Both the position numbers and the translations under genes were made by a program. Below are positions 130 to 8,313 of a DNA stretch of 64,000 nt, one piece after another. The stretch lies in NCBI RefSeq assembly GCF_009914755.1, contig NC_060927.1. One strand, 5' to 3'. Below the pieces are notes generated by a model. It was not told the DNA's origin, searched no databases, and saw only the letters and a list, made by a program, of their open reading frames with translations. Position 1 is the first letter of the stretch; each line of letters opens with the position of its first letter. The DNA comes from the human T2T-CHM13v2.0 reference genome, Homo sapiens.

Positions 130-800
130 TCTAGGAACGGGGCCGTGAAGTTGTGCACGGCTCCAGACACAGAAAACAGAAGCCAGAGGAGGCTCTCCTA
201 GCGGGCCGTTGGCCTCCTTGGGCCCGCGGAAGGCGGCCCTTTGGGAGCGCCTCTCTGCACCGTCCCAGCTCCGCTCCCCTCTCGGGGAAGTTGTGGGCCT
301 CGGGGGTGAGAGGACGACTGCCTGGGTTGTCGTGGCCGCAGTGACCGCTAGGGGTCGCCTTGGACACGCGAAATACGTCCGCGAGCGGAGTCCCTGCGGT
401 GGGGAAGGCGCGGGCTCTCCCAGACCAGGAGGAGGGGGACCCACCCACCTCTCTTCTTCTGCGCTGGTAAGTCCGGGGGCTCCAGCGCAGAAGCTTCGGG
501 GGTGGGGCAGAGAGGCTGTCTGGAGTTCTAGCAGCAGACTCCGCCCCGCAACCGATTGACTCCAGGGTCCTGCCGCCCCCAAGCCCCGAAACTCCTGACT
601 TCCTCCCTTCACCCCTCACCCCCACTGTCCCCAGTAACAGAGCCAATGTGAAGTGCGCCTAGGCATAATTTACTTGAGCACATTTCCCGGGCACCTACTG
701 TGTGCCAGGCTCGGCCCGCGGAGACACCCGAGTTACAGGGCAGGGCAGGATCAGCTCCGCGAGGCCAGGGCGTTTTGTCCTGTTGTTCACTTGCAGCCCG
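130..800 (+). promoter_or_regulatory. Small CpG-rich island / candidate promoter with RFX X-box-like motif and a consensus splice donor
   Basis: CpG-dense unique sequence; GTCGCCTTGGACAC 354-367; CTG|GTAAGT donor at 466/467; GC box at about 541; CCAAT at about 643. Confidence 0.55.
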
Positions 801-2336: not shown

Positions 2337-2980
2337 GGCCTTGGCAACCCAGCCCTCATCGGCTGCATGTATCCTTGGAGATGAGGCTCTGGGAGCCCAA
2401 ACACAGGCCGCAGAGCTGTGGGAAGAGCCATTCTTCCCTCCTCCACCTCTCCCTGCCCCTGGGGAGCTGTGGACCTCCCAGAACCAGGCCTGCTGGAAGG
2501 AATGCATCCAAAAGGAGGCCACCACCCAAGTTGCCTGGAAGATCAACGATGGCCACAAGTACCTAAGGGAGGGGACCGTGCCCAGGAAGCAGCTCCAGCA
2601 GGCCCCATCCAGGTCAGCCTTGGTAGCGGGCCCAGTGCCTGCCACCAGCTCCCGTGATAGCAAGGAGGTACAGGTTGGATGGCCAGAGACCAAGGGGGCC
2701 CAGAACCAGCTGTCCAAGGGAGTGGGTGTCCAGGACTCCCCACCCAAGGGAGACAGAGTCTGGAAGGCCAGAAAAGCAACTCAGGGGCCAGCAGGTCAGA
2801 CCAGGCCGGAGAGTTTAGAAATGAGGCAGGTCTCCCCAAGAATCCTGCAGCTGCTCTTCCCAGGCATCTCCCACGATGGCCAAGGCCACGCCCTGGACCT
2901 CCAGGCACGGCATCGGCTGAAGCCCGAGGAGAAGTTCCAGTACCCAGTCATGTCATCCTAGGAGTACAGCTGGCACGTGG
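2337..2980 (+). pseudogene. SPMIP1/ATP6V1FNB-like disabled gene, main coding exon
   Basis: Acceptor CTCTCCTCTCTTTCAG| at 2336; the frame from 2461 reads GELWTSQNQACWKECIQKE...EMRQVSPRILQLLFPGISHDGQG...PEEKFQYPVMSS*EYSWHVG, resembling SPMIP1 as recalled; in-frame TAG 2959-2961; donor G|GTAAGG at 2980/2981. Confidence 0.8.
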
Positions 2981-4029
2981 GTAAGGGCCACCACCATCTT
3001 GCCATTCCAGGCCTCTGGCAGGCAGGCCTGGCCTCCCTCCCCAGCCTCATCCTTCACCACCCCTCACCCCGGCTCATGGACCTGGATCACCTTCCTCTGA
3101 GCACATAGACCTTGGGGATGTGCTTAGGCACCTTCACACTTCCAGGCCTTTTCATGCTCTGGTCTCTCCACTTGGGATGCTCCTCCTGCTGCCCCACCCT
3201 GATGAAATTTCACACATCACCTCCTCTGGGAAGTCTTCTGAGATGCCTCCAAGCAGATTAGTTGAGCCCACCTTCATGCTTCTGCAGGTTTTTGAGTCCA
3301 CAGAAGCACTGGGCACACGGAATCACCATTCCTTATATATCCATCTGGCCTGGGGAGCCCTTTGGGTTCCAAGACTTCTTAGTTAACTTTATTCATGCCC
3401 TCCCAGCTCCCAGCCTGGGGCTGGTACTTGACTGTGGAATGAATGAACAAATGAATGAACATGGACTAGGGATGAGAACTTGATTTGCAATCAGGAGGTA
3501 TGAGTTCAAATCCTGGTTCTACCACTTCTGAGTTGTATGATCTCAGGCAAGAGCCTCAACTTCTCTGGGCCTCAATTTTCACATCTGAAAAATGGGAATA
3601 ACCTAGTATGTGCCTTCCTGTGTCATGGAGTTTTGGGGAAATCAAGTGGGAAAGCACTTGGAATAGGAACTGTCCTCACAAACCCCCTGTGAGGTAGGAA
3701 CCAAGTGTGATTCCATCATTCAGAATGGAGAGGAGATCTGGAGTTACTGAATCCCAGCTCTACCTGGAAATGAGTCACTGAACAAACAAGCACAGAATTG
3801 TGAATCAGTTTAATTAGGAGGCTTGGGTTTGATTTCTGGCTCATTCATTCATTCAGTCTGTCAATCATTTAACAAGTGTTTATTGAGCTCCTGGTATGTG
3901 TCAGACACTTACACTTTTTGTCCCTGGGCATACAACAGAGAACAAGACAGACATGATCCCTGCCCTCACCAAAGGTAGACAACAAACAGATAATGATGCG
4001 GTGTCAGGCAGTGGTCCACACTACTACAG

Positions 4030-4775
<746 letters not shown>

Positions 4776-4954
4776 TCAGGAAAGGCCTGCTGGGAGGGAG
4801 CATTTGAGCAGAGTCCTAGGTATTACAGTATCTACTCCACAGGACTCATCCACAGAGCAGGTCTCAGCTGAGGCGCCACACAGCAACCTCCCAGTCCCCT
4901 CCTGCTCTGGCACATGCGTCTGTGTCCACTGCCTTTGAAGCCAGTGCCAGTTAT

Positions 4955-5122
4955 AGGGTTGCCAGATCTAGCAAATAAAAATGCAGGATGCCCAGTTACC
5001 TTTGAATTTCAGATAACAAATAATTTTTTAGTGTACATATTTCCCAGATACCTAAACAACAATTTGTTGTTTATCTGAAATTCAAAGGTAACTGGGCATC
5101 CTGAATTCCATCCTGGCAACCC
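4955..5122. mobile_element. MER53 palindromic hAT MITE
   Basis: Termini AGGGTTGCCAG...CTGGCAACCC; long internal inverted arms. Confidence 0.85.
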
Positions 5123-5154
5123 AATCATTGAGGTGCCGGTTCCCATGCCAGGGG

Positions 5155-5628
<474 letters not shown>

Positions 5629-6330
5629 GATGAGAGACTTACTATTGACCACTTCCCTTTCCCCACCACAGTTACAAACAGGGGCAGTGACATTCCAGTG
5701 GCTGCAAAAAGACACAGGGAAGAGGGGTTAAAGGCATAATCTGGACCCCAGCTAGGTCAGCCAAAAATGCCCTTTTACACATGTAAAGCACAGTCTAGGG
5801 CCTGGCATGAAGTAAGTGTTCAAACAAATGGTAGCTGGTATTATTAGCACTGTAGTTGGTGGTGGTGGTGACTCAACAGGCAGGATTTGCAGCCTATGGG
5901 CATGTGGGGAGCTAGTTCAGCCTTGAGTAGCCCCCACGTGCCTCCTGTGGAGCACTGGTATGGGTGGGGTATCCAGGGACAACAGGAGAAATGGGATGTG
6001 GGGTAAGTGAGCTTGGGGTGGGGTAGAGTCAGAATAGTTAATTGGAATTGCCCCCCTATCAGGACAGATCCTGGTGGTGCTGCCAAGGTGGGGTGTCAAG
6101 GTCTCCGTGCGATGTCAGGCATTACCCTTTGGTTATGAGGTCATAGGAGGGTCTGAGGGTCCTAAGGTAGGAAGGCATGGCTGGTCCTAGGTGGTACAGA
6201 AATATTGCACTTTTTTAACAACTGAAGCAGCTATAGTAGTGTGTCCCTGCTGGCCCTCGGCCCTGTGGGTTGGGGTAATGTGGCAGGAGGAAGGTGACCC
6301 TCACTCTCCCCAGCCTCTGCTGTGTTGCAG

Positions 6331-6449
6331 GGGACGCTATGAAGCACATCAAGGTTCCAACTTATGCCAAGGTCCAGTCCATCACAAAGGTGTTTTACAC
6401 CCAAAGTGGCATCTGCCATTTCCCACGGCAAACAGACCAGCTCACGTGA
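6331..6449 (+). pseudogene. SPMIP1/ATP6V1FNB-like disabled gene, terminal coding exon
   Basis: Acceptor TGTTGCAG| at 6330; phase-1 join completes Gly, then DAMKHIKVPTYAKVQSITKVFYTQSGICHFPRQTDQLT* (TGA 6447-6449); too short to appear in the ORF track. Confidence 0.72.
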
Positions 6450-6942
6450 GTCCACATGGGGAAAGGTCCCCAGAGCTGCTCCTATCCTATGCCTATGGCC
6501 CATCTGGACCCTCCGGCCAGACTCACCCTTGCTCTGCAGCTGTCGAGCCCCGCCGCCTTGCTGTGCATGGGTAGGCATGAGAGTGACTAAGGCGGGGTCT
6601 GGACCAATCGGTGGCCCTCCCTCCTGGCTGTCTGCCTCCAAGGACCTCAGCTCCTTGTAGGGCTGCCTCCGCCCCTGCCGTCATTGGCAAGGCGTGGACA
6701 TGGGGGCTGCTTTCCTGGGGGGAAACGGTGGGGTTTCCAAGTGCTCCCTCAGCAGACCCGGCGCAGGAGAGGGCTCGCTAAATCCTTAAGGTGCTAAAGG
6801 GAGAGAATATCTCCCTGCTTTTTATTTCTCTACATTCTGTTGAAGGGATCCATAGCTGGGTTGCTTAGTGCCAATTTACCCCATAGTTTAGGGAAGAAGT
6901 AGTTTACGTTTTTGCTTACCGCTTCTCTCATCCCTCAGAACC

Positions 6943-7810
6943 TGTGTTAGTCAGGGTTGCCTCACTGCTAAAACAAACAGCCCCTAAGTCCCAGTTGCTT
7001 AAACCAATAAAGACGTCTTTCCTACATGGCCGTCCAATCTGATGTTGGGCAGGTGACCTTCCACCTGCTGATCCGGGGACCCAGGCTTCTCCCACCTGGT
7101 AGCTCTGCCATCCCCTAGGGCCTCACAGCCCTCCTCTGAGTCCTCTACATCCAGCCAGGGAAAGGGGAGAGAGACTGAGCATGGAGAGAATACACCTGCT
7201 CTGAACCGCCTTGGCCTGGAGCTAAGCGGTGTCACTTCCTCTCCCATTCCACTGGTGAGAACAAGTCACATGACTCCTAGATGTGAGAGGGCTGGGTTGA
7301 TTCATGGAGCCATGCGCTCAGCAGGAAGAGGAGGAAGGGTACCACAGTGGCCTACATGTCTTGTGCAGCCACCATGCTAAATTCGAAGCTCCTTCCGGTA
7401 TCAGTTTCTTAGGGTTGCCATAATAAAGTACCCCAAACTCAGTGGCTTAACACAACAGAAATTGGCGATCTCACATTTTTGGAGGCTGGAAGTCAGATCA
7501 AGCTGTGGGCAGGGTCAAGCTTTCTCTGAAACCTATAGGGACAAACACTTTCTTGCCCTTCCTGGCTTCTGGTGGCCACCAGCATCCTTGGCCTTCCTCA
7601 GCTTCCAGCTGCAGCACTCCAGGCTCTGCGTTCCTCGTCACGTGGCTGTCTACCTGTGTGTCCCTCTGGCTTCCCATGACTGTCTCCTTAGAAGGGCATC
7701 AATCGTATTGGATTAGGGGCCCACGCCTCCAGTATGTCCTCATCTTAACGAATTACATTTGCAGTGGTCCTATTGCCAAATGAGGTGGCACTGGCAGTTA
7801 GAACTTGGAA
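6943..7810. mobile_element. Old MaLR (MLT1-type) LTR remnants
   Basis: Characteristic TGTGTTAGTCAGGGT.. and GGGTTGCCATAATAAAGTACCCCAAACTCAGTGGCTTAACACAACAGAAAT.. segments. Confidence 0.65.

Positions 7811-7833: not shown

Positions 7834-8313
<480 letters not shown>

What the first reader, a model, noticed from the sequence alone, without database searches (positions are those of the whole stretch)
2381..2961. Only two apparent inactivating lesions: datable and possibly polymorphic gene loss
SEEN: there is no in-frame ATG before 2821. However, ATG 2381 and CTG 2459 share a frame that is one base off the conserved frame. Adding one base in the G run at 2461-2464 (CTG GGG GAG CTG) fuses them into one continuous ORF. 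The stop TCC TAG GAG TAC is one transition from TGG (S-W-E-Y). All splice sites are intact and no other frameshift appears over about 640 nt. INFERENCE: so little decay suggests a recent (hominoid or human lineage) inactivation. The TAG lies only 19 nt upstream of the last junction, so on its own it would escape NMD.
Basis: partly seen in the sequence, partly recalled or inferred. Interest (0 to 1): 0.7.

Follow-up and report, generated by a model that had tools for sequence, protein, structure and literature searches.

The report
Known broken microtubule-lining gene beside FLNB
This is an already catalogued dead human gene (intact in mice as Gm45521) whose protein likely lined the microtubules of sperm tails or cilia; it has lost its start codon and gained a stop codon, and it likely began to decay in the common ancestor of monkeys and apes rather than recently in humans.

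Summary
The sequence facts hold: ATG 2381, CTG 2459, G run 2461-2464, TAG 2959-2961 19 nt before an intact GT donor, and no frameshift in the body. The locus is a two-exon SPMIP1 (ATP6V1FNB)-family gene (Pfam PF22589), 213 codons, gap-free against the sloth protein. It matches the GENCODE unitary pseudogene ENSG00000283511 (mouse Gm45521), listed by Mudge et al. 2019 as 'primates, PTC'. The loss also looks older than proposed: 9 of 45 highly conserved residues are changed (median in intact genes 4%; mouse lemur 1 of 45), several shared with a tamarin model, including the glycine of the tubulin-binding SNYG motif. The TAG itself is younger (a relative about 7.5% diverged still has W). Against a long decay: only one stop, no internal indel. 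Small additions: the gene is the FLNB-linked twin of FLNC-linked SPMIP1 on chr7, and elephant seals carry a separate frameshift. Polymorphism could not be tested.

The parts
2458..2980 (+). Exon 1 coding remnant (codons 1-174 plus the first base of codon 175) of the SPMIP1-like pseudogene
   Evidence: Translation; tblastn-type match to P0005 at 67% identity, 1 TAG; gap-free alignment
2458..2460 (+). CCT at the position of the ancestral start Met (context P-L-P-A|P-G-E-L versus P-L-P-A|M-R-D-L in a bat-like relative); the overlapping CTG 2459-2461 may be the relic of the ATG
   Evidence: 33 of 38 named non-primate relatives have M-[RKGE]-[DEG]-[LVM] here, 0 of 3 primate models; relic reading is inference
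2381..2383 (+). Out-of-frame upstream ATG, not a conserved start
   Evidence: M in 2 of 5 relatives read in this frame, T in 3 of 5; distance to the true start 63, 69, 72, 72, 81 nt in those and 77 nt here (counted)
2953..2970 (+). Remnant of the SNYG motif (codons 166-171; S-S-W-E-Y-G in intact relatives, S-S-stop-E-Y-S here)
   Evidence: motif consensus from PMC10973386 section 11
2959..2961 (+). Premature TAG at conserved W168
2887..2907 (+). Cluster of missense changes at conserved residues of the predicted helix (R144H, Y147D, R149Q, E150A)
   Evidence: helix 142-153 predicted at low confidence
2981..2982 (+). GT donor, phase 1, same position as the intron of chr7 SPMIP1
6329..6330 (+). 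AG acceptor after a pyrimidine tract
6331..6449 (+). Exon 2 coding remnant with the natural TGA at 6447-6449
   Evidence: (54% identity to P0005 residues 174-212)
7006..7011 (+). AATAAA, candidate poly(A) signal after exon 2
   Evidence: function untested

Best explanation
The locus is the already annotated unitary pseudogene of mouse Gm45521, a two-exon SPMIP1-family gene broken by a lost start codon (CCT at 2458) and a premature TAG (2959), whose decay likely began on the simian stem and whose intact protein is predicted to bind the inner wall of doublet microtubules. SHOWN: family membership, two exons, 213 codons without an internal indel, both lesions, excess missense at conserved sites. 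INFERRED order of events: (1) an old duplication left one copy after FLNB (chr3) and one after FLNC (chr7, SPMIP1); (2) in primates the canonical ATG was lost or displaced, and in the ancestor of monkeys and apes selection lapsed, hitting the tubulin-binding SNYG module (R144, E150, G171); (3) the TAG came later, in an already non-functional gene. INFERRED function of the intact gene: a SNYG-module microtubule inner protein of sperm or motile cilia; its loss would be buffered by SPMIP1 and other SNYG proteins. Any remaining transcript would give no functional family protein.
For: PF22589 at 58.6 bits, cut-off 32.1. Named orthologues from rodents, bats, carnivores, ruminants, afrotheres and sloth; three carry the label Gm45521 / predicted gene 45521. 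Mudge 2019 Supplemental Data S3 row: chr3:58180009-58183978 +, ENSG00000283511, Gm45521, 'primates', 'PTC', transcribed. Start Met at codon 1 in 33 of 38 named non-primates, 0 of 3 primates. Changes at sites conserved in at least 90% of 26 intact non-primate proteins (codons 1 and 168 left out): human 9 of 45, P0001 6 of 27, Saguinus 6 of 25, against Microcebus 1 of 45, Lemur 2 of 37, Tupaia 2 of 34, pooled background 58 of 1194, binomial p 0.0003 for human. Ratio of conserved-site to variable-site change: human 0.65, highest of 28. Shared derived states of human, P0001 and Saguinus: R149Q, E150A, Q154L, L165M, R144Q/H, G171 lost. Human versus P0001: exon 10 of 134 and domain 5 of 55 differences, translated intron 9 of 119, no sign of constraint. 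Neutral simulation: 9 or more of 45 has P 0.006 at 0.02 substitutions per site, 0.027 at 0.03, 0.15 at 0.05, 0.41 at 0.07. Filamin repeats lie about 9 kb and 8 kb upstream of the only two PF22589 matches in the genome; same intron position; two separate clades, SH-aLRT 92 and 94.
Against: One stop and no internal indel is little decay for 0.05-0.07 substitutions per site: 1.5-2.4 new stops expected, and P(no frameshifting indel) 0.28-0.015 depending on an assumed indel ratio of 0.06-0.14. Two intact genes on long branches reach similar conserved-site rates (shrew 10 of 48, tenrec 8 of 49), although with lower ratios (0.37, 0.42). The exon-versus-intron control is thin: only 6 of 153 pairs were usable, ratios 0-0.33 in three bovid pairs but 0.55-2.25 in three bat pairs, and the one bovid pair tested is not significant (p 0.11). 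Simian evidence rests on two protein records, one a patched gene model, one unnamed; no orthologue DNA was seen. Several human changes look like CpG transitions (inference from codons), which inflate the age. Both strepsirrhine models also lack the canonical Met while keeping conserved residues, so the start loss is not cleanly dated. No solved structure holds a mammalian member of the chr3 clade.
Confidence: 0.78

Rival explanations
1. Selection only relaxed in simians: the gene kept being translated from another start (an upstream exon or a CUG) until the TAG ended it within apes.
For: No internal indel and one stop in 213 codons; splice sites intact; P0001 and Saguinus keep W168; the frame is open upstream to 1927 and through the two predicted upstream exons; Microcebus keeps a well-conserved protein without the canonical Met.
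Against: Invariant residues of the SNYG module are changed in all three simian-type sequences; exon and intron diverge equally between human and P0001; the Saguinus model skips codons 101-135 and exon 2; no full-length simian protein among the hits (90% clusters could hide one).
Confidence: 0.12
2. The gene died at the base of primates: the start codon was lost before lemurs split, and the lemur models are patched pseudogenes.
For: 0 of 3 primate models have the canonical Met; Microcebus has P at codon 1 as human does, Lemur reads P-C-P there and its model lacks exon 2; Mudge 2019 writes 'primates'.
Against: Microcebus 1 of 45 and Lemur 2 of 37 conserved-site changes, and the shortest branch of the mammal clade for Microcebus (0.049 versus 0.30 for human), point to continued selection.
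Confidence: 0.05
3. One reading: recent hominoid or human loss by a one-base deletion after ATG 2381 plus the TAG, perhaps still polymorphic.
For: The fused ORF can be written; ATG 2381 has a counterpart in frame with the true start in two unnamed relatives, P0029 and P0091; CTG 2459 plus a one-base loss is a possible history of the start codon; TAG is younger than the split from P0001.
Against: The 27-residue extension has no family match and no conserved length or frame; P0029 and P0091 themselves look disrupted; missense decay is too large for 0.02 substitutions per site or less (P 0.006); one revertant allele would leave the other lesion and G171S.
Confidence: 0.03
4. RefSeq's predicted LOC124909485 is a real protein that uses upstream exons and ends at the TAG.
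For: The three in-window exons join in frame without a stop and have AG/GT ends; GENCODE lists the locus as transcribed.
Against: The stretch 2150-2457 matches carnivore and ruminant read-through translations in different frames, as non-coding DNA does; the region is stop-poor in all frames; the product would end inside the SNYG motif; the model starts within the end of FLNB (gene table).
Confidence: 0.02

Closest known systems
GENCODE unitary pseudogene ENSG00000283511 / mouse Gm45521 (Mudge et al. 2019, PMC6886504, Supplemental Data S3)
   Same: chr3, + strand, span 3,970 nt (3,992 here from 2458 to 6449), PTC, a RefSeq predicted coding model on top, orthologues named Gm45521. Identity rests on these matches; no liftover was run.
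   Different: The table lists only the PTC and a FAM183 domain; the lost start codon, the SPMIP1 family assignment and the link to FLNB/FLNC are not in that row.
SPMIP1 / ATP6V1FNB (chr7, after FLNC; chains 8OTZ_A and 9V10_Ia)
   Same: PF22589, same phase-1 intron, position just downstream of a filamin gene on the same strand.
   Different: Intact 176-aa frame; separate clade; 47% identity over the 59-residue matched core of P0005; N-terminus M-x-R-x-L-N-x-D rather than M-R-D/E-L.
Sea urchin sperm doublet microtubule protein 8SNB_1i (labelled ATP6V1FNB)
   Same: Best solved-structure match of the sloth orthologue (97.7 bits, E 7e-27), begins M-G-E-L and keeps S-S-W-E-Y-G-W.
   Different: Invertebrate; likely co-orthologue of both vertebrate copies (it scores 76 bits with an SPMIP1-type protein).
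SNYG-module microtubule inner proteins (PIERCE1/2, CFAP144/FAM183A, CFAP90, CIMIP1; PMC10973386)
   Same: Motif position and flanking helix; Atlas look-alikes are SPMIP1, FAM183 and LLC1 clusters at 0.88-0.90.
   Different: This locus is not in that paper's list of human members; its motif has S for N in the whole clade and, in human, a stop and loss of the invariant G.

Membership tests
SPMIP1 family (PF22589) | Profile score above the curated cut-off (32.1 bits) | tested here: met
   58.6 bits for the truncated translation, 74.9 bits read through the stop
SNYG-module microtubule inner proteins | [ST]-N-x-x-[ILVY]-G motif with invariant glycine | tested here: not met
   Human reads S-S-stop-E-Y-S; intact orthologues read S-S-W-E-Y-G (G kept, S for N)
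SNYG-module microtubule inner proteins | Associated short helix | tested here: inconclusive
   Model of the sloth orthologue has helices 5-31, 127-134, 142-153 but mean pLDDT 44; Foldseek found nothing at E <= 0.001
SNYG-module microtubule inner proteins | Location in the doublet microtubule lumen | not testable with these tools
   No mammalian chr3-clade chain in the PDB copy (4 sequences matched); shown only for SPMIP1 and the sea urchin protein
Unitary pseudogene | Disabled reading frame with introns at the ancestral locus | tested here: met
   Start loss, TAG, intron with GT-AG ends
Unitary pseudogene | Intact orthologue in other species | tested here: met
   26 full-length named non-primate proteins; synteny seen only indirectly (a cotton rat record labelled filamin-B) and as published
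Unitary pseudogene | No recent functional parent copy in the genome | tested here: met
   Only other match is SPMIP1 on chr7, in a separate old clade; it is a distant paralogue, not a parent
Polymorphic pseudogene | A coding allele segregating in people | not testable with these tools
   No variant data; names absent from 7 supplements of PMC11576641; two lesions would both have to be absent
Vertebrate whole-genome-duplication pair (ohnologues) | Paired position in paralogous blocks and duplication at the vertebrate base | tested here: inconclusive
   Filamin adjacency on chr3 and chr7 shown, none on X; two clades with unnamed deeper members, support 92 and 94, 124 columns only; date not shown

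The most novel reading that the evidence does not exclude
Vertebrates carry two filamin-linked SPMIP1 twins; the FLNB-linked twin (Gm45521) is an unstudied microtubule inner protein that has been lost repeatedly and independently (monkeys and apes, elephant seals, possibly further mammal lineages), so that simian and seal axonemes lack a lumen subunit that mouse keeps, giving a natural experiment on which inner proteins are dispensable.
Probability: 0.3. Interest if true: 0.45.

Novelty: already known. Interest (0 to 1): 0.22.

Why it matters
Modest. The loss is catalogued. What is useful: the RefSeq T2T model LOC124909485 is probably a false protein-coding call; relatives in other mammals are mislabelled SPMIP1/ATP6V1FNB although they are the FLNB-linked paralogue; and mouse Gm45521 (no hit in the searched full-text library) is a testable candidate microtubule inner protein that humans lack, which bears on how far mouse sperm and cilia structures stand for human ones.

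Tried and rejected
Frameshift from ATG 2381: rejected. Retrocopy origin of either paralogue: rejected, both have the same intron. The idea that this copy alone is the true orthologue of the sea urchin protein: not supported, the gap is small (97.7 versus 76 bits) and the tree does not resolve it. Structure prediction of the sloth orthologue gave pLDDT 44, pTM 0.17 and no fold match, uninformative. Orthologue DNA could not be had: the collections hold no other eukaryote genomes, so dN/dS and the DNA history of the start codon are open. The first residue of P0001 (M for V41) was dropped from the count because the same source reads TTG as M in P0023. Literature searches: 'Gm45521' 0 papers; four locus identifiers together 0 papers (AC137936.2 and LOC105377105 were recalled names, not from a call); ATP6V1FNB 17 and SPMIP1 15 papers, listings only; PMC7555810 main text has no Gm45521 (passages only, supplement not read). 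These searches do not cover most supplements or subscription journals. Earlier scan findings were not available.

Full report
Observation. ATG 2381 and CTG 2459 lie in one frame, one base off the conserved frame; the G run is 2461-2464; the in-frame ATGs are 2821 and 2950 only; TAG is at 2959-2961, 19 nt before a GT at 2981-2982. A second exon lies at 6331-6449 behind an AG and ends in TGA. Read from 2458, the two exons give 213 codons with one internal stop and align without a gap to the 213-aa sloth protein P0005.

What it is. The translation matches Pfam SPMIP1 (PF22589, 58.6 bits). Three homologue searches (22 of 47, 5 of 283 and 60 of 66 candidates) returned 41 species-named proteins, three labelled Gm45521 or predicted gene 45521. 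Supplemental Data S3 of Mudge et al. 2019 (PMC6886504; I read the first of two parts of that file and main-text passages; files 1 and 8 were not searched) lists chr3:58180009-58183978 +, ENSG00000283511, mouse Gm45521, transcribed, point of pseudogenisation 'primates', event 'PTC'. The same table uses 'human', 'human / chimp' and 'apes' for other rows. Chromosome, strand, span and mouse name fit this locus; I ran no liftover. The gene loss is therefore known.

The first lesion is a lost start. Of the 41 named proteins, 33 of 38 non-primates have Met at the codon that reads CCT at 2458-2460 (three of them scored by eye from the printed N-termini); the five without are horse, tree shrew, rhinoceros, raccoon dog and one elephant seal model; 0 of 3 primates have it. 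Read-through translations put the context in register: P-L-P-A|M-R-D-L in P0192 against P-L-P-A|P-G-E-L here. At the place of ATG 2381, 2 of 5 relatives read in that frame have M and 3 have T, and the distance to the true start varies (63-81 nt; 77 here). The upstream DNA matches relatives in different frames. So the region is 5' non-coding and the fused ORF is not the ancestral protein. CTG 2459 may still be the relic of the ATG with a one-base loss after it; that needs orthologue DNA.

Age. At 45 sites conserved in at least 90% of 26 intact non-primate proteins (chosen as full-length; the two lesion codons left out), human differs at 9, the unnamed simian-like P0001 at 6 of 27 and the Saguinus model at 6 of 25, against 1 of 45 (Microcebus), 2 of 37 (Lemur) and 58 of 1194 pooled. 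Shrew (10 of 48) and tenrec (8 of 49) are as high, but they are also far more diverged elsewhere: conserved-to-variable ratio 0.37 and 0.42 against 0.65 for human, the highest of 28. Human, P0001 and Saguinus share R149Q, E150A, Q154L, L165M, a change at R144 and loss of G171, so relaxation predates the split of New and Old World monkeys, if the Saguinus model is sound. Human and P0001 differ at 10 of 134 exon residues and 9 of 119 translated intron residues, as expected without selection; the control for this test is thin (6 of 153 pairs usable, mixed). A neutral simulation on the window's codons makes 9 of 45 unlikely below 0.03 substitutions per site; from recall, the human line has about 0.02 since the ape ancestor, 0.03 since macaque and 0.055 since marmoset. 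P0001 keeps W168 at about 7.5% protein distance, so the TAG is a later hit. Against a long decay stand the single stop (1.5-2.4 expected at 0.05-0.07) and the absence of internal indels (P 0.28 to 0.015); this keeps alive the rival that a relaxed gene was still translated for a time.

Family and likely function. The genome has two PF22589 matches: here, about 9 kb after the last filamin repeat on chr3, and SPMIP1 on chr7, about 8 kb after the last filamin repeat there, both on the filamin strand. They share the intron position and fall in two clades (SH-aLRT 92 and 94; 79 rows, 124 columns, 68 unnamed representatives picked by length and motif from the 150 listed). This fits an old block duplication; the date is not shown. 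The best solved-structure match of the sloth orthologue is a chain of the sea urchin sperm doublet microtubule (8SNB_1i), then two mammalian SPMIP1 chains, 8OTZ_A and 9V10_Ia. PMC10973386 (passages and section 11 read) describes the SNYG motif with an invariant glycine that contacts tubulin in the doublet lumen and lists SPMIP1 among its bearers. The TAG falls inside that motif and the glycine is serine here. That the intact gene is a lumen protein of sperm or motile cilia, and that SPMIP1 buffers its loss, are inferences; no structure or paper found tests Gm45521.

RefSeq model. LOC124909485 joins 167-305, 386-466 and 1952-2961 in frame and ends at the TAG. Its extension is not conserved as coding and the region is poor in stops in all frames; it is probably a false call.

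Other losses. Two elephant seal models and one unnamed record share a frame change at about codon 153-154; their tails equal the shifted frame of this window. Unnamed P0029, P0044, P0091, P0039 and P0047 also look disrupted; not followed up.

Verdict.

Noticed in passing
P0034, P0037 (Mirounga), P0042: Shared frame change at about codon 153-154 of the orthologue, and L for the start Met in P0037: an independent loss in elephant seals.
   Followed up: partly
P0029, P0044, P0091, P0039, P0047 (unnamed): Relatives with deletions, frame changes or a lost start (T for M in P0091): possibly further independent losses.
   Followed up: no
window 130-560: CpG-rich stretch (GC 61-65%, CpG o/e 0.62-0.72 in the windows starting at 1 and 251); its translation VVVAAVTARGRL resembles the 5' part of the elephant seal model P0037, so transcripts of the locus may start here in both species.
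   Followed up: partly
P0002 (Microcebus), P0025 (Lemur): Both lemur models lack the canonical Met yet keep conserved residues and share a 5-residue in-frame deletion; a shifted start in lemurs is possible.
   Followed up: no
searches hit names: Many mammalian records of this clade are named ATP6V1FNB or SPMIP1 although they are the FLNB-linked paralogue; one cotton rat record is named filamin-B isoform 4.
   Followed up: partly
window 6443-6452: The natural stop overlaps a donor-like sequence (AC|GTGAGT).
   Followed up: no
window 8005-8210: An Alu with about five tandem copies of an internal unit of roughly 32 nt, seen by eye.
   Followed up: no
window 4510-4755: Purine-rich GAA/GGA simple repeat in the intron, following an Alu tail.
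   Followed up: no
G000:C7:130225599-130225982 (minus strand): A filamin-domain match with 2 TGA stops about 54 kb past the last FLNC repeat, probably a FLNC-derived pseudogene fragment.
   Followed up: no
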